Below, in pieces: positions 35,246 through 60,483 of a DNA stretch of 64,000 bases. The stretch is from a virus (taxonomy: Duplodnaviria; Heunggongvirae; Uroviricota; Caudoviricetes): positions 38,037-102,036 of the IMG/VR virus record IMGVR_UViG_3300021387_000308; one strand, given 5' to 3'. The notes under the pieces were generated by a model. That model did not search any database, was not told where the DNA came from, and worked only from the letters and a program-made list of their open reading frames with translations. Made by a program: the position numbers and the translations under genes. Positions within the stretch are counted from its first letter, which is position 1, and every line of letters starts with the position of its first letter.

Positions 35246-35250
35246 GTGAG

Positions 35251-45898: not shown

Positions 45899-46329
45899 AC
45901 ATATTCTCTCCCATACATTCTCACAAGATCTTCTTCAATAGCCATAGCCTTAGCTTCATGTTTGGTACAGAAACCATTAGCAATCATTGCAGCATCAGAG
46001 AGATCTTTTGCAATCCTATGATAAAGTCTAGCAAGCTTCAGATGGTTTTTGAGTTCAAGCTTTTCAGAACAAACATCAATACCAACCTTTTCATCAAACT
46101 CATCTTTCTCATCACAATAAGCATTGGCTGTGATATTATTTTCTCTCATCAGAAAATCAAATATAGTATACTTACGACTCGCGTTTCTAATCAATCGTTT
46201 ATATTTGTCCTTAATACCAGCCTTGAGATCATTCTCAATACCTTTTTCAACCATCTTACCCTGAACCAGACGAGCTTCCGGGATAACCTTAAATTCTTTA
46301 TTTCTAACATTAACTTTCTTCATAATCAA
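45895..46329 (-). CDS. hypothetical early protein (144 aa)
   Basis: Track ORF, start overlaps the next gene's stop. Confidence 0.45.
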   Translation of the reverse strand: MIMKKVNVRNKEFKVIPEARLVQGKMVEKGIENDLKAGIKDKYKRLIRNASRKYTIFDFLMRENNITANAYCDEKDEFDEKVGIDVCSEKLELKNHLKLARLYHRIAKDLSDAAMIANGFCTKHEAKAMAIEEDLVRMYGREYV

Positions 46330-46604
46330 TCCTCCTGTGCAATTACAATAGCATTATAAATAATTGTTCTCTTACCATCGAGGTCAAATAAAACCTTGTT
46401 TTCATTAGACTCAATATCAATCTTGCCACTATATTCGGCAATTTTTTCACCAGTATTTGCATATACTGTGACGGTTCTATCAATTCCACCGCTAAAATTC
46501 GATAAAATACTTTTTTTATCTCTATTCCATTTAGCGGTACATCCACTAAGGACAAAAGCTGCACCAATCACAATACATGCAATACTAATAATCTTCCTTT
46601 TCAA
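46326..46604 (-). CDS. putative lipoprotein (92 aa; signal peptide then lipobox LSGC)
   Basis: N-terminus MKRKIISIACIVIGAAFVLSGCTAKW. Confidence 0.45.
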   Translation of the reverse strand: MKRKIISIACIVIGAAFVLSGCTAKWNRDKKSILSNFSGGIDRTVTVYANTGEKIAEYSGKIDIESNENKVLFDLDGKRTIIYNAIVIAQED

Positions 46605-46885
46605 CTGTAAAATCCCTCCGTTCTATAAGCGCCGAGTTCACTTACTTTGCGAAAGAACTCTTCAATCTCGAAATAGTCATTGGTAACAGGAGCCAAAGTA
46701 ACGTCTCTCCCACACATTTCCATAACTCCCATCACAGAACGACCATCAACACAAAGTCTTCCACTAATAACATTAACATCAATATTTAAGCTGTCACAGA
46801 TAGCGCAAAATTTATTTACTTTATCTACTGTCAGCCTCATCCTGATTTCGTTCGTCCTGCTGTCCATCAACTTTCTCCAATTCAT
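46601..46885 (-). CDS. HPr-like phosphocarrier-fold protein lacking the catalytic His (94 aa)
   Basis: DGRSVMGVMEMCG resembles the HPr Ser46 region (LKSIMGVMSLG). The region that should hold His15 reads KFCAICDS. Confidence 0.4.
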   Translation of the reverse strand: MNWRKLMDSRTNEIRMRLTVDKVNKFCAICDSLNIDVNVISGRLCVDGRSVMGVMEMCGRDVTLAPVTNDYFEIEEFFRKVSELGAYRTEGFYS

Positions 46886-47147
46886 AAATAGAATTTATTG
46901 TTTCAATCACATAATCTCCAAAAGAATTAATCCCAGAACCAATAATTGCCGAAGTATGCCAACACGCATATAAAGAATCACTAGAAATAAAATTCCAATA
47001 AATTTCTTCGAATTCTTTATAGTCTTCTATAGGCTTATCGGTATCAATAATTGATCCAATTAAGCCATCATACTTATAGTCTGTAACTTCATCATATCTA
47101 GTTCCTTTTCTCCCACTATGATAAATACCTATAATCTTATACTTCAT
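46821..47147 (-). CDS. hypothetical early protein (108 aa)
   Basis: Track ORF in the tiled minus-strand early operon. Confidence 0.35.
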   Translation of the reverse strand: MKYKIIGIYHSGRKGTRYDEVTDYKYDGLIGSIIDTDKPIEDYKEFEEIYWNFISSDSLYACWHTSAIIGSGINSFGDYVIETINSIYELEKVDGQQDERNQDEADSR

Positions 47148-47427
47148 AATTCCTCACAATATTGAAACACGTATCGCAATCGCCATTATATTTACAGTCA
47201 CTGTGATATGAACATCTATTCTGCATCGTTATAAGCCTATCTTTAATCATAAACTCAGATGATTGATTGCTAGTAATAGAATAGACAGCTATAATCACAT
47301 CTTGTGGTCTTACAACTTCTTTTAGTGAATAACCATTTTTTATTCTTTTTTTTAAATCGTCTGCTAAATCTTCTTCTGTTTTATAAGACACAGAGATAAA
47401 ATCTTCGCTTCCAATCAATTTTGTCAC
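47137..47427 (-). CDS. hypothetical Cys-rich early protein (96 aa)
   Basis: Track ORF; C-terminal CSYHSDCKYNGDCDTC. Confidence 0.4.
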   Translation of the reverse strand: MTKLIGSEDFISVSYKTEEDLADDLKKRIKNGYSLKEVVRPQDVIIAVYSITSNQSSEFMIKDRLITMQNRCSYHSDCKYNGDCDTCFNIVRNYEV

Positions 47428-47528
47428 TCCCTTCGTTTAATAATTTATATATAGAAGTATACTACAATATCTTGTGGTTGTCAATTATATATTTAATATT
47501 TTATTCACAATTTTTCCACATAATTCGT

Positions 47529-47936
47529 TTACCACGTTATCATATTACCAAGTATACAATGACAAATGCCACTTCCACCATTTTTGGGATTATTATTGCA
47601 ATTTTTACATGGATTTTTCTCTTCAATATTCCATCCACCAATATAGTGATCTTTGTCTTTAATATCCAATTCAGCTATTTTTGTATTTATAGTATTGTCA
47701 ATGATTGAACCAATTGTATTTACTGTAGCCATATTTGTTGTTATAGTTCCATCGCCAAAATCAGCAACATAATTTGTATTATTCTCTTCCGGGAATGGAA
47801 TCCTAATATTTTGTTCACGTTCTTCATGTGACCAGCCACAATTTCTACATTCATACACTTGAATGGGTGGATTAGTTGCAATTATGCTATTGGATAAATC
47901 ATGCCCACATTTTGGGCAAGTGTAAATAAATATCAT
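47529..47936 (-). CDS. double zinc-ribbon protein (135 aa)
   Basis: CPKCGH ... CRNCGW, second cluster CKNCNN ... CHC. Confidence 0.45.
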   Translation of the reverse strand: MIFIYTCPKCGHDLSNSIIATNPPIQVYECRNCGWSHEEREQNIRIPFPEENNTNYVADFGDGTITTNMATVNTIGSIIDNTINTKIAELDIKDKDHYIGGWNIEEKNPCKNCNNNPKNGGSGICHCILGNMITW

Positions 47937-48241
47937 TTTGAATACCTCTCCTTATAAACCTCGCATCTCAAACATGAATCGTATTTGCCAGGTGGAGTCT
48001 GATCTATACAATCTTCTCCTGTAATTTCACAAATTATTTTTTTGTTATATGGATTTTCAATCTCTCTCCAATACAGAATTCCATATCCACATTTAAATAA
48101 TCCGCTCTTAACTGGAAGAACGGTCAGGATATTTTCCCGACCTATTTCTTCAGATATATGAATTACATCACTAAGATTCTCGCAATATTTATAACATAAT
48201 TTATCCAATGTGAACCTCACCAAATTCAAGAGAATTGTCAA
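47933..48241 (-). CDS. hypothetical Cys-rich early protein (102 aa)
   Basis: Track ORF, start/stop overlap with neighbours. Confidence 0.4.
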   Translation of the reverse strand: MTILLNLVRFTLDKLCYKYCENLSDVIHISEEIGRENILTVLPVKSGLFKCGYGILYWREIENPYNKKIICEITGEDCIDQTPPGKYDSCLRCEVYKERYSK

Positions 48242-48524
48242 TCAGGATTTTCGCTTTGTACCAAGAAGTTTTCGGATTGCTCTTCTGTTTTTCTTCATAC
48301 TCTTTATCATTTATTCTAATACTATGAATATTTTCCTCTATGGGAGTAGGAGTAGTGTCAAAACTAATATTACAGCCAGTAATATGATACTGTTGTGGAT
48401 TTTCTGCGGGTATAATATCTCTAGTCTTTTCATTCATAATCAGATACGGATATTTTTTATTACTGTCATAATAAACATCAATATACTTCTTTACCATTGT
48501 TTCATCAAACTTAATAGCATTCAT
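48201..48524 (-). CDS. hypothetical early protein (107 aa)
   Basis: Track ORF. Confidence 0.4.
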   Translation of the reverse strand: MNAIKFDETMVKKYIDVYYDSNKKYPYLIMNEKTRDIIPAENPQQYHITGCNISFDTTPTPIEENIHSIRINDKEYEEKQKSNPKTSWYKAKILIDNSLEFGEVHIG

Positions 48525-48535
48525 ATTAATTCTCC

Positions 48536-48898
48536 TTATTTATAATATCTTCCACTATCAGCTACACTAGCCATAGAATGAGCGCGCAAATCAAATCTAA
48601 ATCTGTTGTTAATCGGAACTCTGTAGGCAAATTCGCCGCCAAAATATACATATGCTTCTTCTTCATCACTCGCTGGAATTAATACATATGTTCTAGCAGT
48701 AGTCATCGCAGATCCACCTACGCCACCAAATCCAAGAGCTGTACTTGCCCACGTTTGGTCAAAATCATAAACATTATATTTTTCAATTACTTTTCTTCTA
48801 TTAATAATATCCTGATTAATTCTTACCAAATCAGCAGTCATATCCATTATATCAATCATATTATTCATCCTTTCGTTCACCGCGACTACAATAGTCAT
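48536..48898 (-). CDS. hypothetical early protein (120 aa)
   Basis: Track ORF. Confidence 0.4.
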   Translation of the reverse strand: MTIVVAVNERMNNMIDIMDMTADLVRINQDIINRRKVIEKYNVYDFDQTWASTALGFGGVGGSAMTTARTYVLIPASDEEEAYVYFGGEFAYRVPINNRFRFDLRAHSMASVADSGRYYK

Positions 48899-49157
48899 CT
48901 GGTTCCATTACAACTGTTGTAAGCTGACTTAATGCTTCACATGCATGATATATTCCATAGTATTTACAATCCTTACAATGGACATGTTGTGGAATTTTAA
49001 TTTCAGAAAATAATTCTACAATATCTATAAACCAGTCAATACAACTGGATACACCGCGAGTAAATGTATCAAATGGTTCTTCCTGATGATCTTGTAGATA
49101 TTCTAATAAATCGTCTTTATCTATTGCTCTCAATTCTATAACCTCGGATCTTTCCAA
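48861..49157 (-). CDS. Cys-rich small protein (98 aa), CKDCKYY family
   Basis: HCKDCKYYGIYHACE, paralogous to 55755..56048. Confidence 0.4.
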   Translation of the reverse strand: MERSEVIELRAIDKDDLLEYLQDHQEEPFDTFTRGVSSCIDWFIDIVELFSEIKIPQHVHCKDCKYYGIYHACEALSQLTTVVMEPDDYCSRGERKDE

Positions 49158-49393
49158 TCAGGATTTTCTCGTTTTTGTCGCTCAATTATTTCGTGCCAAC
49201 CATCAATATATTCATCTTTTTCTTTTAAATCTGCAATCTTATCTTTGAGTACATTGATTAACAAATCTTTTTCCTCAACAGTTTCGAATGTGATTGTATC
49301 AATACTATGCTCTACTTTATCGAGTATATCAGAATACTTTTTCAAATATTTTTTAAAAACACTCACAATTATTCTCCTATTATTCGTTGCCAA
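49136..49393 (-). CDS. hypothetical early protein (85 aa)
   Basis: Track ORF. Confidence 0.35.
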   Translation of the reverse strand: MATNNRRIIVSVFKKYLKKYSDILDKVEHSIDTITFETVEEKDLLINVLKDKIADLKEKDEYIDGWHEIIERQKRENPDWKDPRL

Positions 49394-49432
49394 GATTTCC
49401 TACCATAAAATCCAACTTTATATTTCTTCATA

Positions 49433-49942
49433 TTAGTAGTATTCATAATTAATGCTACCATCCTTAATCCCATCAAGTAGTCGCTCTTTATAAGCCAAAT
49501 CTTGTTTTAGATAATCAATCTCTCGCTGCATTCTCTCAATCACCACTTCTTTAATTTTTTTAGAACCGCGTCTAACTACATATTTAGGATAACTAATACC
49601 ACCAGAATCTAATGCAACTTTCCATCTATCTTCTTCTGGATATTCAAGCCAGCTTTCATAGCTATTAATATAACGGATATCATCCAAATCAAATAAAAAC
49701 TCAAACTTATCAAAATTTTTATCGGTTAATTCAACCGGATGTTCATCACCAGTTGACCAGTAAGTATCATACATAGCATACTTACCCTTGTATTCTTTGA
49801 CCTTGAATGTCCAATTTTTACACCAATATGGATCGTTACGTTTATAATATGGCAACCATTCCAACACTGGATCACAACGATAAATGCCGTTCATATGAAG
49901 CTTATTAATATTTTCTTGTGATAACATGTTCGTCTCCATCAA
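49433..49942 (-). CDS. hypothetical early protein (169 aa)
   Basis: Track ORF. Confidence 0.45.
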   Translation of the reverse strand: MMETNMLSQENINKLHMNGIYRCDPVLEWLPYYKRNDPYWCKNWTFKVKEYKGKYAMYDTYWSTGDEHPVELTDKNFDKFEFLFDLDDIRYINSYESWLEYPEEDRWKVALDSGGISYPKYVVRRGSKKIKEVVIERMQREIDYLKQDLAYKERLLDGIKDGSINYEYY

Positions 49943-49963
49943 TATTCTCCATTCTCACCATAT

Positions 49964-50200
49964 TTATCCTATATAAAACTTAATTTCTGGATTAAACTCT
50001 ACTTCTCCAACGGCAAAGGTTACTTCAAAATCTTCCTCAGTATCCATTATCTTAAAAGAAGTTGTTACTTTATCACCAACATTCTTATCACTTATAATCA
50101 TCCTATCATATGCGTATAAGATTGCTTTTTCAAAGTTTTTAAAGTGATATTCTTTTCTTGCATTTAAACTACCAAGATCACTATATGGAATGATTAACAT
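49964..50200 (-). CDS. hypothetical early protein (78 aa)
   Basis: Track ORF; paralog-like of 62046..62294 (both begin ML/MIIIPY..). Confidence 0.35.
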   Translation of the reverse strand: MLIIPYSDLGSLNARKEYHFKNFEKAILYAYDRMIISDKNVGDKVTTSFKIMDTEEDFEVTFAVGEVEFNPEIKFYIG

Positions 50201-50216
50201 AGATACACTCCTTTTC

Positions 50217-50483
50217 TCACCATAAATCTTCAGATGTTAAAACACTACCTCTCATTTCAATTCCCATTTGTTTAGCAATTTCTGTGGCAGTTTCTCGATC
50301 AACAAATTCCGCAGTCCAATCTTCGCCAAATATGAATCCATCTATATGGCACTTTTTGTACTGGGCAGTTTCTCCAGCATCATGGATTACTTTAATAATC
50401 TCATGATGTCTTCTACCTCGTCTTTCAATCCAGGTACCTTCATTCGTCTTGTATCTAATTGCTGCACATTTAAAATGTTTCAT
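50217..50483 (-). CDS. hypothetical early protein (88 aa)
   Basis: Track ORF. Confidence 0.4.
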   Translation of the reverse strand: MKHFKCAAIRYKTNEGTWIERRGRRHHEIIKVIHDAGETAQYKKCHIDGFIFGEDWTAEFVDRETATEIAKQMGIEMRGSVLTSEDLW

Positions 50484-50507
50484 AAACCCTCCGATATTTT
50501 ATTATTT

Positions 50508-50801
50508 TTACCTGAATTCAACGTCCCCATATTCCATGGTTGGGTCGCTAAATACTTTATAACCTTGATAAAGCCCAATTAATCCAGCAGACTCATCAAA
50601 TGAATCTTCGTCACGCTCACAGTATTCGAGTTTAGGCACATTTTTCAGCGTTTTAGGAGACATAAATATATACAAATCGCTGTGATATATATTAGAATAA
50701 CAATCGATCTTATGATTCAAATCTTCAATATCCAATTTATTAGCTATATTAAATTTCATTGAGTAAACCATCATTATATCCTCCAAATGTTTTATTACCA
50801 T
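50508..50801 (-). CDS. hypothetical early protein (97 aa)
   Basis: Track ORF. Confidence 0.35.
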   Translation of the reverse strand: MVIKHLEDIMMVYSMKFNIANKLDIEDLNHKIDCYSNIYHSDLYIFMSPKTLKNVPKLEYCERDEDSFDESAGLIGLYQGYKVFSDPTMEYGDVEFR

Positions 50802-50831
50802 AAAATCAGTTTTCTATTAGCTGTTTCTCAT

Positions 50832-51194
50832 TTAAAAGTGCTTAACCTTAACTTTCCTCATCCTGTTTTTCTTTTCACAAATCTCAATGGCTTTGTTGAG
50901 TTCTTCGGTACTATATCTGAACACGGTTTTATCAAGTTCATCGCTAATAAACGTCCAACCATTATCCATACGCCATCCCCAGATATTAGTAAACCAAACC
51001 TCAACAACTTCACATTGTCTAATCTTATATTTACCAAATAGTCCTTGATAAATCACATAACAATATTTGTTAAGTCCACCGCCAGGGAATGGAACAAATG
51101 GAGAATCTAATTCTTTATGAAACTCTTTTATTTCAGTACCATCATAATCAACGGCTGCATCTTTGTGCGCGGTAAATAACATGTTAAACACCAT
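50832..51194 (-). CDS. hypothetical early protein (120 aa)
   Basis: Track ORF; first gene downstream of the structured intergenic region. Confidence 0.4.
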   Translation of the reverse strand: MVFNMLFTAHKDAAVDYDGTEIKEFHKELDSPFVPFPGGGLNKYCYVIYQGLFGKYKIRQCEVVEVWFTNIWGWRMDNGWTFISDELDKTVFRYSTEELNKAIEICEKKNRMRKVKVKHF

Positions 51195-51576
51195 CCATAC
51201 AAATTTTATATTTATTTAATCTGTGCCGTTTTACACTCCGCTTCAGACACTGATTAGTACACGGAGAAACCAGGCATATTTGCACCTTATGTTATTATCC
51301 ACGTTCGGTTGTGGTAAGTCTTTCCTTACATTTGTCGATGAGCGGAAAGGAAACCTTTTAATGAAATTGCTCACGTCTGCGGGTGGGGACTTGCACCCCA
51401 CATGATTGGAGTTTTGGGATATTATTGCTCTCGATTACCCCCTGCGTTACACCCGAAGGTTCAAGATTAATCTTGCGCTGACTCGGTGATTATTTTACAT
51501 GGCACAACATCTATCCATAACCAATCTATAAGAAGCCACACTTTAGCGTATATCTGTTCCGCCACCGCAGATAAAA
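51195..51576. other. 382-nt GC-enriched, ORF-free, hairpin-rich intergenic region inside the early operon (candidate origin / small RNA / regulatory hub)
   Basis: No ORF of 60 aa or more on either strand. Visibly higher GC than the flanks. Hairpins GTAAG-tctttc-CTTAC, CTTTCC...GGAAAG, GTGGGG-acttgca-CCCCAC. Confidence 0.4.
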
Positions 51577-51834
51577 CTATTTTGATTTTACAATTTCTAC
51601 TGAAGTCACTTCTGTATAATCTTGTGATAATTCTATAACAGCATCATGATCAAAAATATATCCATAACATTCATCCGTTTTTGTATTAACGTCTGTTATT
51701 ACTCCGATACATTTTCCATCTATACATATAGGACGATCTCTTGCTGCTTTTAAAATGTCAAATCTTCTATTTAGATTTGGTTCTGTTTCTTCATATCTAT
51801 TTTTGATTTTAACTTTAAACTTGACATCAATCAT
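51577..51834 (-). CDS. hypothetical early protein (85 aa), TAG stop
   Basis: Track ORF; the stop codon is TAG. Confidence 0.4.
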   Translation of the reverse strand: MIDVKFKVKIKNRYEETEPNLNRRFDILKAARDRPICIDGKCIGVITDVNTKTDECYGYIFDHDAVIELSQDYTEVTSVEIVKSK

Positions 51835-51858
51835 CTTTCATAACTTACTCCATAAAAT

Positions 51859-52098
51859 TTAGTTTTCAGCTTCACACCAATCACGAAGCTTTTCTTCGCA
51901 ATCAAGTCCATTGTCTTCTGTAATATTTTCATCATTACATGGATACGCTGGGCAACCATCACAATTCAATATCATCGAATCAATAAATCGATCCTGCGTT
52001 AAATTACTTATATATTTTTCAAAATTTGTCATATTATCTCCAAACTTATTTTCTATCCTCAAAGAAACTTTTTGTATCAAACCATTTATCTTCAACAA
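51859..52098 (-). CDS. Cys-rich small protein (79 aa)
   Basis: CDGCPAYPC ... CEEKLRDWC. Confidence 0.35.
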   Translation of the reverse strand: MLKINGLIQKVSLRIENKFGDNMTNFEKYISNLTQDRFIDSMILNCDGCPAYPCNDENITEDNGLDCEEKLRDWCEAEN

Positions 52099-52429
52099 TG
52101 TTTCCTATAATTTTAATAGTATCTCCCCAGCCCATTGTTGCCACTCTAATAAATTTGCCGACCATTTGATTATATTTACTGACACCAACTGTATCCATGA
52201 TTCGCATTATATACTCTGTCCCTGGTTCATAGCCTTTGAACTCTTTGGCTCCAAGATAACCACTTCCGATTTTAAAGCCCCCATATACACAACCCCATCC
52301 ATCACCTTCAAGAACTATTTCTGCACATAAACATCCATGGTCAGCCATTGAAAGATCTACTTCGGTGATTTTGGCATTTTCTATTTTATAACCAGCCTCT
52401 TCGAGTAATTCTTTATTCCATTGCTTCAT
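52046..52429 (-). CDS. hypothetical early protein (127 aa)
   Basis: Track ORF. Confidence 0.4.
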   Translation of the reverse strand: MKQWNKELLEEAGYKIENAKITEVDLSMADHGCLCAEIVLEGDGWGCVYGGFKIGSGYLGAKEFKGYEPGTEYIMRIMDTVGVSKYNQMVGKFIRVATMGWGDTIKIIGNIVEDKWFDTKSFFEDRK

Positions 52430-52458
52430 AGTTTAGTCCTTCCAATCAAACTTAGTTT

Positions 52459-52761
52459 CTATTCCATTATTTTAAATCCATCTATTGTCTTATATACTGC
52501 ATCACAAATCTCATCTGATAATTTTTCCAACATCAATTCTTCATTAATCTCATGTTTCAGATATTCTTGGGATACATCAATTGTAACGGCTATTGAATTA
52601 TTATCTGGGTTAAGTTGACGGTCTTCATCTTCCACTTCAAATTTGAAATTATACCACTCGCCATTAGCATCATACGCTCCAAACAATAAATCTGTTTCCT
52701 TATCATATCCTAGCTGTTTAAATTTATTAATAAATTCTGTAATTTTCATATAAAACCTCAA
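52459..52761 (-). CDS. hypothetical early protein (100 aa)
   Basis: Track ORF. Confidence 0.35.
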   Translation of the reverse strand: MRFYMKITEFINKFKQLGYDKETDLLFGAYDANGEWYNFKFEVEDEDRQLNPDNNSIAVTIDVSQEYLKHEINEELMLEKLSDEICDAVYKTIDGFKIME

Positions 52762-53275
52762 TTTTATTTTGTTCGTTCCATAAATCTTCTGCGATTAATA
52801 ATTCCGTCTTAGTTTGACGATAAATATCTCGCAATTCCCAGTCATCTAAATCCGATACGTCACTCTGAATATAATCGCTCGTAAATGATCCAACGCTTCC
52901 ATAGCTACCATCTGAATATATCGCAACAAAAATATTGTTATAACTCAGTCCATATTTTTCTTTGATATAATCTGCGCTCTCACCTTTGATATCGAATCTA
53001 TAGAAACCATTATTACTAATTCTTCTTAGATTATAAAAATCGCTATACCAAATCTTTCTTCCCCAAACATCCATATGTGGTCCAGTATCTCTGTGTTTTA
53101 ACCACAATATAGACATCTTAAAATCACCGTTATAATAACTAAGAGCTTTTTTGCAATCAATAATTCCGGCCCCAGTCATTTCGCGTAATTTTTTAATATC
53201 TTCTATTGTTGCCTTATATTTTTCCATAATCTTATTTATCAAACTTAATTTTCGTCGGTTACCAATGTTGCCCAT
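52727..53275 (-). CDS. protein with EF-Ts N-terminal (UBA-like, EF-Tu-binding) domain fused to an unrelated C-terminal domain (182 aa)
   Basis: IKKLREMTGAGIIDCKKALSYYNGD aligns with the EF-Ts N-terminus [25 protein letters not shown], with the TGAGxxDCKKAL core intact. Confidence 0.5.
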   Translation of the reverse strand: MGNIGNRRKLSLINKIMEKYKATIEDIKKLREMTGAGIIDCKKALSYYNGDFKMSILWLKHRDTGPHMDVWGRKIWYSDFYNLRRISNNGFYRFDIKGESADYIKEKYGLSYNNIFVAIYSDGSYGSVGSFTSDYIQSDVSDLDDWELRDIYRQTKTELLIAEDLWNEQNKIEVLYENYRIY

Positions 53276-53460
53276 TCATTAACACGATTACAGATACAGC
53301 CATTATTCATGTCTGCATATTCCTGAAGTTTCGGTAAAATATTACCAACGCACCAAGAACTTTCGTTTACATGAAATTCAATCATGTCTTTGTCCCAATC
53401 CTCTGGAACTTCAATTTCAACATCAATTGGAAATCTAATAGTTACCGTTTTCCGGTTCAT
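53245..53460 (-). CDS. hypothetical early protein (71 aa)
   Basis: Track ORF. Confidence 0.35.
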   Translation of the reverse strand: MNRKTVTIRFPIDVEIEVPEDWDKDMIEFHVNESSWCVGNILPKLQEYADMNNGCICNRVNEWATLVTDEN

Positions 53461-53487
53461 ATCTTTTTACCTCATCAAAGACTTGTT

Positions 53488-53889
53488 TTATCCCCACCAT
53501 AAACCACGACCATTAGTATATTTTGAAGCTTCCTCCTCCGACATTACTTGGTTTTTATAAAAATACTTCTCCATATCAGGATGTCCGTCTTCATCAATAG
53601 CCCATTTTAGCCATTGAATAATTTCACGTATTTCATTTTTGCTATAAACAACGAATCTGGCATCCTCATCAAAATCATAATCGGTGGTATCTACAGTTGC
53701 CCAATTAGTAATACGCTCCGTATGGTCATTATCCCAATTAAAACTTGGTTCCAGATTAAGTGTACCATTAAATCCATTACCATTGCTACCTGTTATAATT
53801 TCAAATCCGTTAACACTATAACCATCAAATGATGAGAACACCGTGCCATTTGGCATTTTAGCTAGTTCATTTCGATTAATTATCCTCAT
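53488..53889 (-). CDS. hypothetical early protein (133 aa)
   Basis: Track ORF. Confidence 0.4.
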   Translation of the reverse strand: MRIINRNELAKMPNGTVFSSFDGYSVNGFEIITGSNGNGFNGTLNLEPSFNWDNDHTERITNWATVDTTDYDFDEDARFVVYSKNEIREIIQWLKWAIDEDGHPDMEKYFYKNQVMSEEEASKYTNGRGLWWG

Positions 53890-54189
53890 TATGTTTCTCC
53901 ATCGGCAGATATTTTTTTATTATATTCGTATGTAGCACATATTTTACCAACTATATATCCAAACATAAAAACAACATTCCCAATTGCTAAATAGATCATT
54001 TTATAACTCCTACTTTTATTATTCACTCCGATCTACTTCAATTTTAACTTTTTTATATTTAGAATCTTTCTTCGGTTTAAATTCAAAACAAGGCTCTTCC
54101 TCACCCTGACAGTTCCAATATTCGTGAAGGAAGTAATCACATTCCTGGCATTCATCACAAGCATCAGTCTCTGGATTCCACATTAATCT

Positions 54190-54408
54190 TTACCCCATAT
54201 ATCCGTGATTAGTTAAACAGATACTAATATTTTCTAGTAAAATATCATAATCCATTGGTGTTAACTTATTTAGAGCTTGATCCAGTAACTCATCAATAAC
54301 ACTCTCAAAATCATATATACTATTCATAAAACTTGTATCAATCATATTATATCCTCCCACATTTCTCAGCCAACTCGTGAATACTTGGAAGATGATCACG
54401 AATTTCAT
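54190..54408 (-). CDS. hypothetical early protein (72 aa)
   Basis: Track ORF. Confidence 0.3.
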   Translation of the reverse strand: MKFVIIFQVFTSWLRNVGGYNMIDTSFMNSIYDFESVIDELLDQALNKLTPMDYDILLENISICLTNHGYMG

Positions 54409-54646
54409 GAAGTTGATTAGCTATCTTATTACACTTATTATCAATATAAAGAGTAACTTGCCACTCTACTTCTTCAATCGAACTCATCCCATTATAATAA
54501 AAGCTTTCAGCGATTAATTCAGGCCATATTAGACAATCCCATACAGTATCTTTTTTCTGAATATATGCTATTTTTTCACCTTCAGCAGACCATAAAAAAG
54601 CACATTCACCGTTATTATATTCTTTCCAATATGAATCATTTAACAT
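54347..54646 (-). CDS. hypothetical early protein (99 aa)
   Basis: Track ORF. Confidence 0.35.
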   Translation of the reverse strand: MLNDSYWKEYNNGECAFLWSAEGEKIAYIQKKDTVWDCLIWPELIAESFYYNGMSSIEEVEWQVTLYIDNKCNKIANQLHEIRDHLPSIHELAEKCGRI

Positions 54647-54697
54647 TCATTTCTCCTAAACTAAATTATCAAATCTGTGCAATTAAGTACATCAATA

Positions 54698-55051
54698 TTA
54701 TTCCTCATTATTTAATATTTTCAAAATTTTTTCTGCTTGATCTGCGGTAAGATTCTTCATCTTTTTTTCAAATGTATCTCGGCATTTTCGAATTAAGTTA
54801 ACCTGACGAATTTGCTCTTCAATCTCTGGTGTTAATAACTGAATATGTGACCTACTCCATACATCGCCACCTCTTTGCCACCCGTCATATCTATATGTTT
54901 CTTTATAGTTGCCAAAATCAACAATATAATCGCCACGCTTTTCAGTAATATTAATCACAGTTCCGATTGAAGTTGGAAGTGAATTGTTATAGTTTCTGAT
55001 TACTCTATCGCCAATTTTTAGATTTAAGTTATTATCCATTTTTAACCTCAT
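54698..55051 (-). CDS. hypothetical early protein (117 aa)
   Basis: Track ORF. Confidence 0.4.
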   Translation of the reverse strand: MRLKMDNNLNLKIGDRVIRNYNNSLPTSIGTVINITEKRGDYIVDFGNYKETYRYDGWQRGGDVWSRSHIQLLTPEIEEQIRQVNLIRKCRDTFEKKMKNLTADQAEKILKILNNEE

Positions 55052-55281
55052 TCTGCATCAAATACAATTCTTCCAGAGGGATCATCATAAATCATCATGT
55101 CCGAAATCTTTAAAGTTCCAGTTCCGAATTTTGTTTCGATTATTATTTCTGTGTCTGGCTTATCTCGTTTTAAATAATCAAAAGCATCAATAAATTTTTC
55201 TATAGAATTGTTATTTGAATTCACCTGTCTCCATATATCATCTACCTGGGCGGTTGTTAATCTGATTTCTACTTTATCCAT
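55048..55281 (-). CDS. hypothetical early protein (77 aa)
   Basis: Track ORF, start overlaps the downstream gene. Confidence 0.35.
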   Translation of the reverse strand: MDKVEIRLTTAQVDDIWRQVNSNNNSIEKFIDAFDYLKRDKPDTEIIIETKFGTGTLKISDMMIYDDPSGRIVFDAE

Positions 55282-55331
55282 ATTCTATACACTCCCAATC
55301 TTCATTAATAAAATCTCTCTTTTGTGTTTGT

Positions 55332-55547
55332 TCAGAAATGGCTACTCTCATTCATTAGTCTTGTAACTCTATCACTTAAAATCTCATATAGCTGTTCATC
55401 ATCACCCTGTATAAATAAACGCTGACAATCATCATCATAATCTTCTACTTTTGTTACAATACCAAAAACTATAAGACCATATATCCCGTAAAAACACACT
55501 CGATCATAAATTTTAAATTTATTATAATCTACTCTAGACATATCCAA
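55332..55547 (-). CDS. hypothetical early protein (71 aa)
   Basis: Track ORF. Confidence 0.3.
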   Translation of the reverse strand: MDMSRVDYNKFKIYDRVCFYGIYGLIVFGIVTKVEDYDDDCQRLFIQGDDEQLYEILSDRVTRLMNESSHF

Positions 55548-55768
55548 TCACCATCATCAACAAAATCTCTCGGATGTTCATACATTCTCTTCTCGTAAAA
55601 TTTTCCATTATCTGTGTTATAACACACCAGATTACCATATTCTAAAGCTGCCAATATATCCTCAACATCCATCCTACAGATATTACCATACGAATAACCA
55701 TTAACTTTTGGTGGCACATGATTACAATTTACGCATATGCCGTTGCCAGTAGCATTACAAATTTTCAT
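55529..55768 (-). CDS. zinc-finger small protein (79 aa)
   Basis: CNATGNGICVNCNH. Confidence 0.35.
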   Translation of the reverse strand: MKICNATGNGICVNCNHVPPKVNGYSYGNICRMDVEDILAALEYGNLVCYNTDNGKFYEKRMYEHPRDFVDDGDWICLE

Positions 55769-56048
55769 CTTTCAACCTCGCCATGCTGCAAAAATCATCT
55801 GGGCCAGTATTGTTACCAAAAATTCTACTAAATGGTGATTTACTACATTCGCCATATTCAAACTGAGTACCTTGATATAAAACGCTACAATAGTGTTTAC
55901 AATCTTTACAATGGATAATTTCTTCGCTATGCAAATCGCACATCATTTTTCTCGCTTGAGAATAAAATCCGCGCTCACCATTTTCGATTGCGTCTTCAAA
56001 CTGATCTAAAATATCAAGAGCATCAGACTTGTTAATATATTCATTCAT
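55755..56048 (-). CDS. Cys-rich small protein (97 aa), CKDCKHY family
   Basis: HCKDCKHYCSVLYQGTQFEYGEC, paralogous to 48861..49157. Confidence 0.4.
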   Translation of the reverse strand: MNEYINKSDALDILDQFEDAIENGERGFYSQARKMMCDLHSEEIIHCKDCKHYCSVLYQGTQFEYGECSKSPFSRIFGNNTGPDDFCSMARLKDENL

Positions 56049-56428
56049 TCTATTACATCGACCTCTAATCCATACTGTTTCGCCAATTTAATCATATTTC
56101 TAGTTCCGCGACTTTCACCAATTGGAAATGCTATTAATATTCCCCTATCAGCTTCCGCAGCATATTTTGCCATTTGTTCATTACGGATTGGGCCAGCAGC
56201 TTTACCATATTTATCCCATTCAGCTGGGAATACTACTAATGGATAGCCATATGCTTTAGCAAACCTTTCGCCAAGTTTATCCGCTCCATTAGCATGACCG
56301 CTTATAATTTCAATAGGATTAATGGTATTCATAAGATGAACACCAAGTTCGTCCAGAGTCTTTAACATTTTTTCGTAGTCATTAAACTCTCGACTGCCAG
56401 CAATTATAATTCTTGTCATATTATTCAT
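56045..56428 (-). CDS. SLOG-superfamily (DUF2493/YpsA-like) protein, about 127 aa from MNNMTRIIIAGS
   Basis: AGSREFNDYE ... SGHANGADKLGERFAKAYGYPLVVFPAEWDKYGKAAGPIRNEQM. Track ORF 56045..56518 probably starts at the internal ATG, after the stop of the upstream gene at 56421. Confidence 0.5.
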   Translation of the reverse strand: MNNMTRIIIAGSREFNDYEKMLKTLDELGVHLMNTINPIEIISGHANGADKLGERFAKAYGYPLVVFPAEWDKYGKAAGPIRNEQMAKYAAEADRGILIAFPIGESRGTRNMIKLAKQYGLEVDVIE

Positions 56429-56642
56429 ATACCCCATACATAGACCCAACAAAAACAGCCGAATAAGACCCATCTTGTTTGACATCCACCACATATGTAC
56501 CAGCATGATATACATCAAAGTTTATTGATGCAATTGGCTTTGGAATATCAATTCCCACATTGTCACCAATACCGATTTTTTTAATGTTGTTATTAACATA
56601 TTCAGCCATCGTGTTCACTCTCACACTTCTTGTTTGGATCAT
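56421..56642 (-). CDS. hypothetical early protein (73 aa)
   Basis: Track ORF. Confidence 0.3.
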   Translation of the reverse strand: MIQTRSVRVNTMAEYVNNNIKKIGIGDNVGIDIPKPIASINFDVYHAGTYVVDVKQDGSYSAVFVGSMYGVYE

Positions 56643-56826
56643 CTATTGTATAAGTTGGCGGTTCATGATATTCACTCAATGGACAACCAGTTGGTCTTGT
56701 TGCTATATTAACCCAATCTGGGAATAATCTCATCGTGACTTTGCAACCTTGACCAGAAAAGAATGGACAAACCAGACACATATCTGGAAGATTCCAATCT
56801 TTAACTAATACACTCATATCAAACAC
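56602..56826 (-). CDS. Cys-rich small protein (74 aa)
   Basis: CLVCPFFSGQGC ... GCP. Confidence 0.35.
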   Translation of the reverse strand: MFDMSVLVKDWNLPDMCLVCPFFSGQGCKVTMRLFPDWVNIATRPTGCPLSEYHEPPTYTIDDPNKKCESEHDG

Positions 56827-56909
56827 CTCTCACATTCTATGTTTCAAAAGAGTTACTTTATCACCAAAGTCAATCGCTTTAACATTGCTGTTAATATATT
56901 CAGTCATTA

Positions 56910-57269
56910 TTAATCTCTCCTATTACATGCGTTCCAAACAAATTTTGATTCGGTATCTAAGAATTTCTGCATTCGTTTCTTTGGGAATAACGTAGAAAAA
57001 CATGTTGTTCCGAAACCACATCTTGATCCTTTAGGAAATATTTCCCATACTTGTCCATGCCAAGTCATTAATTTTTCTGAAAAGAACAATTTTAAAGAAG
57101 GTTTCTCGTAGCCCCAGAATGGAGATCTGCAATATTCACAAATATATCTTGTTCCATTAATATTTTTCTCTATCGTATATTTTTTGTAAAAATGATTAAA
57201 AAACCAATGAAGCAATTTATTGTTTGATCTAACATTGCATACAGAATAACTTGCGTAATTACTACCCAT
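56910..57269 (-). CDS. hypothetical early protein (119 aa)
   Basis: Track ORF; CEYC ... C cluster. Confidence 0.4.
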   Translation of the reverse strand: MGSNYASYSVCNVRSNNKLLHWFFNHFYKKYTIEKNINGTRYICEYCRSPFWGYEKPSLKLFFSEKLMTWHGQVWEIFPKGSRCGFGTTCFSTLFPKKRMQKFLDTESKFVWNACNRRD

Positions 57270-57393
57270 AAATTCTCCCCGTGAATACTATATCATTATA
57301 TCATATAACAGTCAATAGCATTTTAATAATTTATTTATTGCTAGATTCTCGTTTTATTAATTCCACTTAGTACAAGCTGTCTTTCCTACAAAT

Positions 57394-57711
57394 TCAACCT
57401 TTTGCATCTTTACCTCCATATGTGCAATTCAATAATACTTCACCAGGACTCATATATTCAAGTTCATCAGAAAACAATTTTGCAAAATCCACCGCTTTAT
57501 GTTTACTAATAATATATTTTATCAAATGTGGATCAACGTAATCCATAAGTACTGTTTCGAATGTGTAAAAATTAGATTTTTCAAAATCAACAGTACGAGC
57601 ATATGATTCCATTTCTGAAAAATGTAAATTAGGTATCGCCATCATTTCCAACAGCGGATGTGAAATAATATATTCCATCAGCGTTAATTTATCTTTTGAA
57701 ACATATAACAT
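57394..57711 (-). CDS. hypothetical early protein (105 aa)
   Basis: Track ORF. Confidence 0.4.
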   Translation of the reverse strand: MLYVSKDKLTLMEYIISHPLLEMMAIPNLHFSEMESYARTVDFEKSNFYTFETVLMDYVDPHLIKYIISKHKAVDFAKLFSDELEYMSPGEVLLNCTYGGKDAKG

Positions 57712-57716
57712 AATTT

Positions 57717-57938
57717 TTATACCACTTCGAATTCATATAGTTTGTTATCAACTGATTCCATAGACATCAATGGATCATCGAACTTTAATCGAAATATATG
57801 GAATCTCACATCTTGTTCTTTGCCATCTTTGTCTGCGGACAAAGTATTAAACCAAAGCTGTCCTGTGCCATCGCCGTTTGATTTCCACTCTATATTTCTT
57901 GCATTATAGATTGGTATATTACTAAGCATAAAATTCAT
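57717..57938 (-). CDS. hypothetical early protein (73 aa)
   Basis: Track ORF. Confidence 0.35.
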   Translation of the reverse strand: MNFMLSNIPIYNARNIEWKSNGDGTGQLWFNTLSADKDGKEQDVRFHIFRLKFDDPLMSMESVDNKLYEFEVV

Positions 57939-57964
57939 ATCATTACTCCCATCAAATAATCTTT

Positions 57965-58210
57965 CTATTGGTTTCTAAATTTTTCAATCCAGGCTGTTGC
58001 TTCAATAATATTTTTTGCAGATTTTCTTAAACGATCAATATCGTTAAATGCTATATCGATACTTGTGCAATGAGAAAACAACCCTTTCATGTCTATCAAA
58101 TCTCCAACTTCAAACTTCTTTTGATGCGAATATAGTCCTTCCATTGCCGCTACATCATCTTTGGAGGCTTCAAGAATAAAGCCATCATTTGTTTTACCAA
58201 TTATTTTCAT
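57965..58210 (-). CDS. hypothetical early protein (81 aa)
   Basis: Track ORF. Confidence 0.35.
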   Translation of the reverse strand: MKIIGKTNDGFILEASKDDVAAMEGLYSHQKKFEVGDLIDMKGLFSHCTSIDIAFNDIDRLRKSAKNIIEATAWIEKFRNQ

Positions 58211-58235
58211 TTCTATCTCCTATAGAATAATATTT

Positions 58236-58484
58236 TTATCTTTCAATCTGATCAATCATTTCTCTCAAGCAACGCAAAATATCGGCTCTTTCGTCATTTA
58301 AACCATTCAGTTGCTCTCCAACTGAAAACATTTGATTACAAAAGTTCGAAAAATTATATTTGCAAATTAATGCTAATTCATACAATATTTCTGCCTGTCT
58401 CTCAGCATCACTGTTCCAAAACTCATCAGCCATATCTTGTGGTGATGGCATAAATGATTCATCACTTATTATCACTCTCATCAA
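58236..58484 (-). CDS. hypothetical early protein (82 aa)
   Basis: Track ORF. Confidence 0.35.
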   Translation of the reverse strand: MMRVIISDESFMPSPQDMADEFWNSDAERQAEILYELALICKYNFSNFCNQMFSVGEQLNGLNDERADILRCLREMIDQIER

Positions 58485-58898
58485 TTCTTACCCCTAATCA
58501 AACAATCTTTTTTATTCTACATAAAATTTGCATCTATATTCTGCATGACAATCATCGCCAGGTGCATATAATTTCAACTCAAGTTCTTTACTAAAGATTT
58601 TTTTTGCCATCGATGTTGATGATAAATCCATCAACAATCATGTCATTACTTTCCACATTACAGAAAGTTTCTCCAATATCTTTAATTGTTGTCACTTCTA
58701 CTATTCTCCATCAAAAACTCTTTCTATCAACTGTCCAGCTACTCCGCATTTAAATATCTCTCAATCAACTTTTTGGTTTTATCACGAATTTCAATTGGTA
58801 TTGAATCATCGCCCATATACAAATCCATTACTTTACCAAATAACTCACCATTGGTATGTGATTCATCTATATATTGTTTGATTTGTGATCTAACATGA

Positions 58899-59171
58899 TC
58901 AAATGTCATTTTGTTCTCCTTTTATTTTATCGATATACTTCAGAATATCATCACAAACTCGTTCACCAATAATGGATTCTCCTATAGAACATAAGCTTCC
59001 ATCTGAGTAATAAACTTTACTGTCTTCAATATATTTAATCAACCTATGCAGCAAGTTACTATCATTCATTATAGCCTTGATCATACTGGCAGTTTCTGCA
59101 TCACAATAAATATCATGTCCATCTTGTTTGATTGCGATATCTAATTCTTCAATAAATTCATTAAGCGTCAT
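58899..59171 (-). CDS. hypothetical early protein (90 aa)
   Basis: Track ORF. Confidence 0.35.
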   Translation of the reverse strand: MTLNEFIEELDIAIKQDGHDIYCDAETASMIKAIMNDSNLLHRLIKYIEDSKVYYSDGSLCSIGESIIGERVCDDILKYIDKIKGEQNDI

Positions 59172-59280
59172 TTGTTCTTCTCTTCCATCCCCCAGCTACA
59201 AAAATCATCTGGTTTAGTTGCTTGCTCGGTTCCATCTACATTACGATGTTCTAAGCATGTCTCCACTTCATCGTAATAAT

Positions 59281-59472
59281 TTAATTTCCTCTGAACAAGT
59301 TCGGAAACATGTCCTTTAGTTCATTCTCTGTGAGTGTCTTGTCTACATCTACTGCATAATAGATCCACCAATCAACTTCGTCCCAAGCCTGTCCATCCAG
59401 AGGCCCATTGCGAATCTCTTCTTGTTCCATATGGGTAAAGAAATCAATATATTCTTGTTTTGTATATTTCAT
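59281..59472 (-). CDS. hypothetical early protein (63 aa)
   Basis: Track ORF. Confidence 0.3.
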   Translation of the reverse strand: MKYTKQEYIDFFTHMEQEEIRNGPLDGQAWDEVDWWIYYAVDVDKTLTENELKDMFPNLFRGN

Positions 59473-59535
59473 TCTGTCTCCTAGCTGTAATACATACTCC
59501 TGTTTTCATCACGGTAGTCATGGGTTATTGACTTA

Positions 59536-59808: not shown

Positions 59809-59967
59809 GTTTTATTCCTCAATCATCATCCTCTATAATTTCATAATATCCACGAACATTATCACAGACCCATTGATCCGCTGCGTCTTGCAGTTCATCT
59901 TCCTGCATATTATCGGGAAATTCATACTCATCACTTTCATCGGCAGATGCAATGTAAAATACTACTT

Positions 59968-60379: not shown

Positions 60380-60483
60380 TATCTATTACCACTCAACTGT
60401 TCTGCTTACTTTAATCTTCGGCTCCCGGTTACCCCAATCTTCAATGAATTCTTCTAAATTAATTTCTGGTGTTTTTGTAGTTA

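What the first reader, a model, noticed from the sequence alone, without database searches (positions are those of the whole stretch)
52727..53275. Early protein carrying the EF-Ts N-terminal EF-Tu-binding module
The TGAGxxDCKKAL core and flanking residues of the EF-Ts UBA-like domain are conserved, but the remainder is unrelated to EF-Ts. This is a candidate EF-Tu hijacker or modulator. It is especially interesting in a phage that later reprograms decoding of TAG.
Basis: partly seen in the sequence, partly recalled or inferred. Interest (0 to 1): 0.55.

Follow-up and report, generated by a model that had tools for sequence, protein, structure and literature searches.

The report
Phage protein borrowing EF-Ts anchor domain
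A small phage gene joins a copy of the EF-Tu-docking domain of bacterial elongation factor Ts to an uncharacterised phage-only domain, so it probably docks on the host's most abundant translation factor without recharging it; binding has not been tested.

Summary

All nine close homologues start at M17, so the gene is probably 52727..53227 (166 aa).

The remaining ~110 residues belong to a previously unnamed domain. It has no Pfam, PHROG, NCBIfam, PADLOC or PDB match. It occurs mostly as stand-alone ~112-aa proteins (at least 136 clusters) in arrays of small genes on large phage contigs. It is also found fused to other small N-terminal modules.

Both domains are under purifying selection (dN/dS 0.07-0.30). 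The EF-Tu-contacting Arg and Lys of EF-Ts are kept.

Best reading: a modular phage accessory protein that uses the captured EF-Ts anchor to dock on EF-Tu without catalysing nucleotide exchange. This is inferred, not shown. The phage does read TAG as sense in its late genes, but nothing links this gene to that recoding. It is a new variant of a known kind, of moderate interest.

The parts
52727..53227 (-). Probable coding sequence (166 aa plus TAA stop). The longest ORF extends to the ATG at 53275 (182 aa).
   Evidence: ORF list. Nine homologues of 153-160 aa all start at the M17 equivalent. The upstream gene ends at 53245, so the 53275 start would overlap it by 31 nt. dN/dS is 0.07-0.30 against L004 and L001.
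53081..53215 (-). EF-Ts N-terminal (TS-N, UBA-like) domain, residues 5-49 of the 166-aa protein. It forms three helices: 8-18, 22-31 and 36-48.
53141..53176 (-). TGAGIIDCKKAL, the EF-Ts signature loop plus helix 2. It includes K26, the equivalent of M. tuberculosis EF-Ts K24, which contacts EF-Tu D144/D145. R15, the equivalent of M. tuberculosis R13, lies just upstream at 53183..53185.
   Evidence: Sequence. Column-by-column comparison with EF-Ts. Contact residues taken from PMC9529903. K26 is invariant in 10/10 family members; R15 is kept in 8/10, with His in the other 2.
52730..53071 (-). C-terminal domain of an unnamed phage family (motif W..DF.Y..R ... Y.F.V.GES.NYL.NKY.L), residues 53-166. 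It is acidic (pI 4.5). The model shows a five-stranded sheet with a short helix (82-91).
   Evidence: An HMM built only from stand-alone family members hits this segment at E=1.6e-12. Family searches. AF2 pLDDT 96-98 over residues 61-130. No Pfam, PHROG, NCBIfam, PADLOC or PDB match.
52736..52843 (-). Long C-terminal helix (residues 129-164). It replaces the conserved RNYEEY.CDD.Y.KDSRWE tail of the stand-alone family.
   Evidence: AF2 secondary structure. Alignments.

Best explanation
This is a two-module phage accessory protein.

Module 1 is the N-terminal anchor domain of bacterial elongation factor Ts, captured from a host-type tsf gene and kept almost unchanged on the face that touches the EF-Tu G domain. 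Module 2 is an acidic ~110-residue phage-only domain. In most phages module 2 works as a stand-alone small protein, and it is shuffled onto different N-terminal modules.

The most likely mechanism has three steps:
1. The TS-N module docks the protein onto host EF-Tu at the site normally used by EF-Ts.
2. Because the catalytic core (subdomain N with the Asp-Phe wedge, and subdomain C) is absent, the protein cannot act as an exchange factor.
3. It therefore either tethers the C-terminal effector domain to the abundant EF-Tu, using EF-Tu as a scaffold or cofactor, or locally competes with EF-Ts.

From prior knowledge (Kothe 2004, Wieden 2001, not re-read here), ribosomal protein L7/L12 also uses helix D of EF-Tu, so it could be a second competitor.

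Shown: the domain identities, the architecture, purifying selection, the modularity, and the absence of the core. Inferred: EF-Tu binding and everything downstream of it.
For: - EF-Ts-specific homology of residues 5-49, with the fold confirmed.
- The equivalents of the two M. tuberculosis EF-Ts N-domain residues reported to bond EF-Tu (R13 to P114/E155; K24 to D144/D145; PMC9529903) are retained. K26 is kept in 10/10 members and R15 in 8/10. The TGAG loop and the following hydrophobic pair are also kept.
- The family keeps 169 of 230 cells at EF-Ts-invariant positions, although synonymous sites are near saturation (dS 0.8-1.4). N-domain dN/dS is 0.07-0.30. This argues that the ancestral binding surface is still under selection.
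- No EF-Ts core is present.
- The C-domain is an independent module. At least 136 clusters are stand-alone ~112-aa proteins, and other fusions exist: P0024, P0049 and P0056. Tandem diverged copies occur in L005. The gene always sits in arrays of small unannotated genes on phage contigs. This pattern is typical of host-interaction or counter-defence genes.
- The gene is conserved at 72-82% amino-acid identity while its neighbours are not syntenic.
- EF-Tu is a recurrent scaffold or target in phage-host conflict: Qbeta replicase, Lit, type IV Thoeris and Avs7 (PMC12803255).
Against: - No binding evidence of any kind. A complex prediction with EF-Tu could not be run.
- In EF-Ts the N-domain is only one of several EF-Tu contacts; most of the residues listed as vital for binding lie at its C-terminal edge or in the core (K51, G54, D80, F81, I125, G126; PMC9529903). 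An isolated TS-N may therefore bind weakly.
- EF-Tu makes up 6-10% of cell protein (PMC12803255), so stoichiometric inhibition or shielding by an accessory protein is implausible.
- Helix 3 and the helix 2-3 loop have diverged from EF-Ts: invariant Leu41 where EF-Ts has Asp/Glu, and an aromatic pair at residues 31-32 (YY in 6 of 10 members, NY or CC in the rest). This could mean a changed partner, or only packing against the C-domain.
- The Pfam score is below the gathering threshold (25 vs 33.2 bits).
Confidence: 0.45

Rival explanations
1. Re-used scaffold. The TS-N/UBA-like three-helix bundle was captured from tsf but now serves as a generic interaction, solubility or oligomerisation module for the C-domain. 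Its partner is something other than EF-Tu. The biological activity lies entirely in the C-domain, as in the stand-alone family.
For: - The C-domain works without any TS-N module in at least 136 clusters and accepts unrelated N-modules.
- Helix 3 and the 2-3 loop have family-specific residues: L41, F36 and, in most members, aromatic residues at 31-32.
- The fusion is rare: about 11 clusters, with none in IMG/VR, GTDB genomes or JGI metagenomes.
Against: The residues that diverge least are the EF-Ts-specific, surface-exposed ones: K12-K13-L-R15-E, TGAG, and D24-C-K26-K27. They include both reported EF-Tu contacts. A new partner would be expected to reshape that face. The generic UBA profile does not match the window protein.
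Confidence: 0.25
2. Counter-defence decoy or shield. The protein mimics EF-Ts to neutralise a host immunity or toxin system that works through EF-Tu/EF-Ts. It would act either by occupying EF-Tu molecules engaged by that system or by baiting a protein that recognises the EF-Ts N-domain. Candidate systems are Lit-type or type IV Thoeris EF-Tu cleavage, Avs7 scaffolding, and tRNase toxins that need Tu/Ts.
For: - EF-Tu is used or cleaved by several defence systems (PMC12803255), and CdiA-CT tRNases need Tu/Ts (PMC9071432 abstract).
- The gene lies in a fast-shuffling array of small genes, and the C-domain family shows tandem diversified copies.
- A homologue (L001) lies two short genes upstream of an RNA ligase, with a kinase and a phosphoesterase 2-3 kb further on, a set that suggests RNA repair.
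Against: - No defence system is identified as a target.
- There are no PADLOC hits.
- Shielding bulk EF-Tu is stoichiometrically implausible.
- The RNA-repair neighbourhood is not conserved in the window or in L004.
Confidence: 0.15
3. Decoding helper for TAG reassignment. The protein tunes EF-Tu so that the phage's suppressor tRNA competes better with release factor 1 when the TAG-containing late genes are translated.
For: - The late genes of this phage carry 76 in-frame TAG codons in ten long ORFs.
- The gene lies in the standard-code block, which is presumably expressed first.
- EF-Ts is known to act on ternary-complex dynamics (general knowledge).
Against: - The catalytic EF-Ts core is absent.
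- The window has no suppressor tRNA or release-factor gene, and the neighbours checked show no translation functions.
- The C-domain family is widespread as a stand-alone protein with no visible link to translation.
- Co-occurrence with recoding could not be tested because the homologue contigs are 8 kb or shorter.
Confidence: 0.05
4. Decaying remnant of a captured host tsf gene, or an artefact of ORF calling, with no function.
For: The Pfam score is below threshold. Truncated or frameshifted tsf fragments are common in assemblies.
Against: - The architecture is the same in 11 clusters with 65-88% identity.
- dN/dS is 0.07-0.30 in both domains, with dS of about 1.
- The AF2 model is confident (pLDDT 90.3, pTM 0.80).
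- The true tsf fragments continue into the EF-Ts core sequence, whereas this protein does not.
Confidence: 0.02

Closest known systems
Bacterial elongation factor Ts (tsf; TIGR00116; Pfam EF-Ts_N PF25025 plus EF_TS PF00889)
   Same: The N-terminal three-helix TS-N domain is homologous. It is 53% identical to an EF-Ts consensus over 45 columns and includes the TGAG..DCKKAL signature. It also keeps the Arg and Lys that contact the EF-Tu G domain in the M. tuberculosis complex.
   Different: It lacks the whole core (subdomains N and C, and the TDF wedge that expels GDP), the dimerisation coiled coil and the C-terminal module. It scores 40.6 bits against a family cut-off of 104. It cannot be an exchange factor by the known mechanism. 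Its C-terminal two thirds are a phage-only domain.
Caulobacter phage CcrColossus gp247, a 98-aa truncated EF-Ts (PMC3556154)
   Same: It is a phage-encoded fragment of EF-Ts, proposed but not tested as a translation modulator.
   Different: gp247 carries the opposite piece: core subdomain N with the F81-equivalent wedge residue. The protein here carries only the N-terminal anchor domain, and fuses it to an unrelated domain.
Viral and defence systems that use EF-Tu as scaffold or cofactor (Qbeta replicase with EF-Tu/EF-Ts; Avs7; Tu/Ts-dependent CdiA-CT tRNases)
   Same: The concept is the same: an abundant, conserved EF-Tu is recruited by a foreign protein for a non-translational job (PMC12803255; PMC9071432).
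   Different: Those proteins bind EF-Tu through their own surfaces. Avs7 binds domains II/III and the Qbeta beta-subunit binds Tu/Ts. Here the proposed handle is a copy of the host's own EF-Ts anchor domain. No interaction has been shown for this protein.
Stand-alone ~112-aa 'GES.NYL' phage proteins (unnamed family; e.g. P0042, P0029, P0054, P0060)
   Same: The C-terminal domain is homologous (E=1.6e-12 with an HMM that excludes the fusion family) and the genomic setting is the same: arrays of small genes on phage contigs.
   Different: The stand-alone proteins have no TS-N module and end in a conserved RNYEEY.CDD.Y.KDSRWE tail. In the fusion family a shorter helical end replaces that tail.

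Membership tests
Elongation factor Ts (tsf, TIGR00116) | N-terminal TS-N domain with the TGAG..DCKKAL signature | tested here: met
   hhalign 99.1%, E=4e-19. TIGR00116 local hit E=1.7e-10. PDB EF-Ts chains only.
Elongation factor Ts (tsf, TIGR00116) | Core domain (Pfam EF_TS PF00889) with the TDF(V) wedge, subdomains N and C | tested here: not met
   No PF00889 hit at E<=10. The hhalign alignment stops at EF-Ts column 46. C-domain against EF-Ts gives probability 0.05%.
Elongation factor Ts (tsf, TIGR00116) | Whole-protein score above the curated equivalog cut-off (104 bits) | tested here: not met
   40.6 bits.
Elongation factor Ts (tsf, TIGR00116) | Catalyses GDP release from EF-Tu | not testable with these tools
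   This needs biochemistry. Absence of the core predicts no activity.
Pfam EF-Ts_N (PF25025) domain | Score at or above the gathering threshold (33.2 bits) | tested here: not met
   25.0 bits, E=1.9e-5 for the window protein. All 9 N-module-bearing members scanned hit the family, best E=4.9e-6.
Pfam EF-Ts_N (PF25025) domain | Homology by profile-profile comparison, and a three-helix fold superposable on EF-Ts N-domains | tested here: met
EF-Tu-binding competence of TS-N | Retention of the N-domain residues that bond EF-Tu (M. tuberculosis R13 and K24) | tested here: met
   R15 is kept in 8/10 members (His in 2) and K26 in 10/10. This shows conservation only, not binding.
EF-Tu-binding competence of TS-N | Physical or predicted complex with EF-Tu | not testable with these tools
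Generic UBA domain (PF00627) | Match to the UBA profile | tested here: not met
   No hit for the window protein at E<=10. Only 1 of 20 family members hits, at E=0.0067. The fold class is UBA-like.
Unnamed phage 'GES.NYL' C-domain family | Significant match to an HMM built from stand-alone members only | tested here: met
   E=1.6e-12, covering residues 74-161 of the 182-aa ORF. A profile built from the fusion family's own C-domain finds the stand-alone proteins in return, and a combined profile recovers at least 136 clusters.
Phage inhibitor folds (AcrIF13, Ugi) | Clear structural or sequence similarity | tested here: inconclusive

The most novel reading that the evidence does not exclude
The protein is a molecular mimic of the EF-Ts anchor. 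It docks on helix D of host EF-Tu without exchanging nucleotide, and so couples a new phage effector domain to the translation machinery. EF-Tu would serve either as a scaffold or as a target whose access to EF-Ts and L7/L12 is blocked. This would be the first phage factor that hijacks EF-Tu by exapting a piece of its own exchange factor. It would also give a functional handle on a family of at least 136 clusters of unannotated phage proteins.
Probability: 0.35. Interest if true: 0.7.

Novelty: new variant of a known kind. Interest (0 to 1): 0.5.

Why it matters
If the TS-N module really docks on EF-Tu, three things follow:
- It would show a simple evolutionary route for phages to reach a central host machine: copy the anchor domain of the host's own regulator and bolt it onto a phage effector.
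- It would give a compact (~45 residue), transferable EF-Tu-binding tag.
- It would offer the first clue to the function of a sizeable, completely unannotated family of small phage proteins (the C-domain family), whose members lie in the gene arrays where host-takeover and counter-defence functions are usually found.

EF-Tu is now known to be cleaved or co-opted by several bacterial immune systems, so a phage-encoded EF-Tu binder is a natural candidate for the other side of that conflict.

If the module has been re-used for another partner, the finding is a modest example of domain capture.

Tried and rejected
- **Related phage genomes.** Megablast of 6 kb around the gene against INPHARED phages gave no match. 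tblastn of the protein gave three hits. One, followed up, is a bacterial rpsB-tsf operon deposited as 'Bacteriophage sp.'. Another is annotated elongation factor Ts in a Salmonella record, and the third (a 386-kb 'Staphylococcus phage' record) was not followed.
- **A hidden EF-Ts core in the C-terminal part.** An invariant Asp-Phe lies at residues 63-64. This idea was rejected: hhalign finds nothing, and in the model the Asp-Phe precedes the first hairpin, whereas in EF-Ts the TDF wedge follows the first strands (my recollection of the EF-Ts fold).
- **Structure.** The first AF2 run, with only 10 close sequences, was poor for the C-domain (pLDDT 62.6). It was replaced by the 121-sequence run (pLDDT 90.3).
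- **Family libraries for the C-domain.** Pfam, PHROGs, NCBIfam, PADLOC and PDB sequence profiles all returned nothing.
- **More context.** The fusion family is absent from IMG/VR, from 185k GTDB species genomes and from JGI metagenomes. The stand-alone family is absent from GTDB genomes, though confirmation there used the fusion protein as reference. It occurs in one IMG/VR contig.
- **Paralogues or separate TS-N genes.** None were found in the window or the fetched loci.
- **Other TS-N fusion architectures.** A search with the N-domain profile returned only truncated or frameshifted bacterial tsf fragments.
- **Taxonomy of the nearest EF-Ts.** The clusters carry no names.
- **Literature on E. 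coli TS-N contact residues.** Several searches failed. Only the M. tuberculosis complex paper was usable.

Full report
**1. What is at the coordinates**

The minus strand carries an ORF at 52727..53275. It is 182 aa from the first ATG and ends in TAA. Nine close homologues from metagenome assemblies (69-88% identity, 153-160 aa) all begin at the residue equivalent to M17. The first ATG would overlap the upstream gene (53245..53460) by 31 nt. In one homologue an AGAGGTG Shine-Dalgarno motif precedes the M17-equivalent start. I therefore take the gene as 52727..53227 (166 aa) and number residues from that start below.

The same 182-aa ORF is called in two other public assemblies. Gene callers prefer the longest ORF, so the start is not fully settled.

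**2. The N-terminal module is a genuine EF-Ts N-domain, not just a UBA fold**

- Pfam gives only EF-Ts_N (PF25025, E=1.9e-5, 25 bits against a curated 33.2). UBA (PF00627) gives nothing even at E<=10.
- phmmer against all PDB sequences returns only EF-Ts chains, from E. coli, M. tuberculosis, Thermus and mitochondria (E 1.7e-5 to 0.016).
- NCBIfam's tsf model matches residues 6-45 at E=1.7e-10. The whole-protein score is 40.6 bits against a cut-off of 104.
- A profile of the phage family aligned with a profile of ten full-length EF-Ts proteins gives 99.1% probability, E=4.1e-19 and 53% identity over 45 columns. The alignment stops at EF-Ts position 46, the end of the N-domain.
- All nine family members that carry the module hit EF-Ts_N, and only one also touches UBA.
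- The AlphaFold2 model built on a 121-sequence alignment is confident (pLDDT 90.3, pTM 0.80). It shows three helices at residues 8-18, 22-31 and 36-48.
- Foldseek against PDB ranks EF-Ts chains in the first 14 places. The isolated mitochondrial TS-N domain superposes at 1.6 A over 43 columns with 40% identity.

**3. Residue-level comparison**

The window protein is identical to the EF-Ts residue at 18 of 23 positions that are invariant in the EF-Ts comparison set. Across the ten family members, 169 of 230 such cells are kept. That set was retrieved by similarity to the query, so the numbers are somewhat flattering.

In the M. tuberculosis EF-Tu/EF-Ts crystal structure, two N-domain residues bond EF-Tu. 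R13 contacts P114 and E155, and K24 contacts D144 and D145 (PMC9529903). Their equivalents here are R15 (Arg in 8 of 10 members, His in 2) and K26 (10 of 10).

What has changed is the loop between helices 2 and 3 and the outer face of helix 3. There is an aromatic pair at residues 31-32 in most members (YY in 6 of 10, NY or CC in the rest), an invariant Phe36, and an invariant Leu41 where EF-Ts has Asp or Glu. This may reflect packing against the new C-terminal domain.

**4. The rest of the protein is unrelated to EF-Ts**

There is no EF_TS core hit. The profile alignment ends at the domain border. The C-domain family profile against EF-Ts gives nothing.

An invariant Asp-Phe at residues 63-64 looked at first like the EF-Ts Asp80-Phe81 wedge. 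In the model it precedes the first beta hairpin, whereas, as I recall the EF-Ts fold, the TDF wedge follows the first strands of subdomain N. No profile signal supports homology, so I reject the resemblance.

**5. The C-terminal domain is a new, mobile phage domain**

A profile of residues ~45-166 searched against 1.8 billion representatives found 15 proteins. Most are stand-alone proteins of 107-137 aa in which the domain starts at residue 3. A second, word-indexed search with a broader profile found 136 clusters, almost all 110-122 aa.

An HMM built only from 54 stand-alone members, with no fusion proteins, recovers the window protein at E=1.6e-12. The homology is therefore not circular.

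The family shares a strong motif: (M)IKFW.EDF.Y.KR ... Y.F.V.GES.NYL.NKY.L.YPN. The stand-alone proteins also carry a conserved tail, RNYEEY.CDD.Y.KDSRWE, that the fusion family lacks.

The family has no match in Pfam, PHROGs, NCBIfam, PADLOC or PDB sequences.

**6. Modularity and genomic setting**

The C-domain is also found behind other N-terminal modules.
- P0024 carries a 45-residue acidic module that is 55% identical to a separate 50-aa ORF of this very window (59819..59971).
- P0049 and P0056 carry yet other N-terminal segments.
- In L005/L006 two diverged copies of the domain gene sit in tandem.

The stand-alone genes lie in long same-strand arrays of small unannotated genes on 160-209 kb phage-like contigs.

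The fusion gene itself is well conserved (72-82% amino-acid identity between the window, L004 and L001), but its neighbours are not syntenic.

Both halves are under purifying selection: dN/dS is 0.07-0.30 with dS of about 0.8-1.4. This excludes a decaying tsf remnant.

The fusion family is rare. It comprises about 11 clusters, all from ENA, Logan or NCBI assemblies. None were found in IMG/VR, in 185,579 GTDB species genomes, or in the JGI metagenome collection. A search with the N-module profile returned only truncated or frameshifted bacterial tsf fragments that continue into the EF-Ts core. No second TS-N fusion architecture came to light.

**7. The phage**

The window is 34% G+C. On the plus strand, 1-38 kb holds tail-fibre-type genes that form long ORFs only if TAG is read as a sense codon. 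There are 76 in-frame TAGs in ten ORFs, including one of 2,900 codons.

On the minus strand, 37-64 kb holds an integrase, a dUTPase, a ribonucleotide reductase and about 45 small genes. These are in the standard code, and six end in TAG. Most of these genes have Shine-Dalgarno motifs (36 of 50), which points to a Firmicutes-type host rather than Bacteroidota.

There are no tRNA genes in the window and no translation-related domains in the 20 neighbouring proteins scanned.

That this gene is early is a reasonable inference from strand, position and code. A functional link between the two has no support.

**8. Mechanism**

Shown:
- A captured, selectively maintained EF-Ts anchor domain.
- Absence of the catalytic core.
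- Fusion to an independently mobile phage domain.

Inferred: the anchor still binds its ancestral partner, the EF-Tu G domain. The reason is that the least-changed residues are the surface residues specific to EF-Ts, including both reported contact residues.

Without the core the protein cannot pry GDP out. It would sit where EF-Ts sits. From prior knowledge (Kothe 2004, Wieden 2001, not re-read here), ribosomal protein L7/L12 contacts the same helix D of EF-Tu.

EF-Tu is 6-10% of cell protein (PMC12803255), so bulk inhibition or shielding is unlikely. I favour a tethering or scaffold role, in which the TS-N handle attaches the C-domain effector to EF-Tu. This is analogous in concept to the use of EF-Tu by Qbeta replicase, Avs7 or the Tu/Ts-dependent CdiA tRNases.

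My confidence figures:
- About 0.45 that EF-Tu docking is the function of the N-module.
- 0.25 for the re-used scaffold rival.
- 0.15 for the counter-defence decoy rival.
- 0.05 for the TAG-decoding helper rival.
- 0.02 for a non-functional remnant.

**9. Comparison with what is known**

The protein is not an EF-Ts. Two of the three sequence-testable defining features, the core domain and the family cut-off, were tested and not met.

The nearest precedent for a phage-encoded EF-Ts fragment is CcrColossus gp247. That protein carries the complementary piece (core subdomain N) and is also uncharacterised (PMC3556154).

I found no described phage protein built on the TS-N domain, and no annotation for the C-domain family. 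I therefore rate the finding a new variant of a known kind: phage proteins that copy pieces of host translation factors or exploit EF-Tu.

Interest is moderate (0.5). It would rise to about 0.7 if EF-Tu docking is demonstrated.

Noticed in passing
window 1..38102 (+ strand) versus 37053..64000 (- strand): The late, tail-fibre-type genes form long ORFs only if TAG is a sense codon: 76 in-frame TAGs in ten ORFs, one of them 2,900 codons long. The opposite-strand block of small genes uses the standard code, and 6 of 50 genes end in TAG. There is no tRNA gene anywhere in the window.
   Followed up: partly
window 59819..59971 (-): This 50-aa acidic ORF is 55% identical to the N-terminal module of P0024, a protein that carries the same C-terminal domain as the finding. 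Small stand-alone genes of this phage lineage are being recombined as N-terminal modules onto that domain.
   Followed up: partly
L005 5690..6037 and 6001..6348 (also L006): Two diverged copies of the C-domain gene lie in tandem and overlap slightly (E=3.5e-10 and 1.2e-48 against the family HMM) at the end of a 209-kb phage-like contig.
   Followed up: no
window 56045..56515 (-): This protein has a YspA/cpYpsA-related SLOG domain (PF10686, E=6e-15), a fold linked to binding of nucleotide-derived signals. It could be a counter-defence sponge.
   Followed up: no
window 54698..55051 (-): A 117-aa protein matches the full length of Phage_ProQ_C_like (PF24203) at E=1.8e-5, just under the curated cut-off (25.8 vs 27 bits).
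   Followed up: no
L001 2700..7219: In the contig carrying homologue P0008, an RNA ligase (PF09414/PF21189) follows the fusion gene after two short genes, and a KTI12/AAA_33 kinase and a metallophosphoesterase lie 2-3 kb further on. The set looks like RNA (tRNA) repair. It is not present next to the gene in the window or in L004.
   Followed up: no
L008 (GenBank MT838987.1, 'UNVERIFIED: Bacteriophage sp.'): The only phage-database hit followed up for the N-domain (one of three; the other two were not followed) is a complete bacterial rpsB-tsf operon (249-aa S2 plus 309-aa EF-Ts). This record, or at least this part of it, is bacterial DNA.
   Followed up: yes
window 38604..39914, 41307..41747, 42647..45898 (-): An integrase (phrog_1, E=4e-42), a dUTPase (E=2e-12) and a 1,083-aa ribonucleotide reductase large subunit sit between the late block and the array of small genes. 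The RNR matches its profile in two separate stretches. The integrase suggests a temperate lifestyle, yet no related prophage was found in GTDB genomes using the fusion protein as probe.
   Followed up: no
L007 11184..12339: A large contig (165 kb) carrying a stand-alone C-domain gene also encodes a 951-aa protein with a PF05183 RdRP-type domain, a Thg1-like protein and a YopX protein nearby.
   Followed up: no
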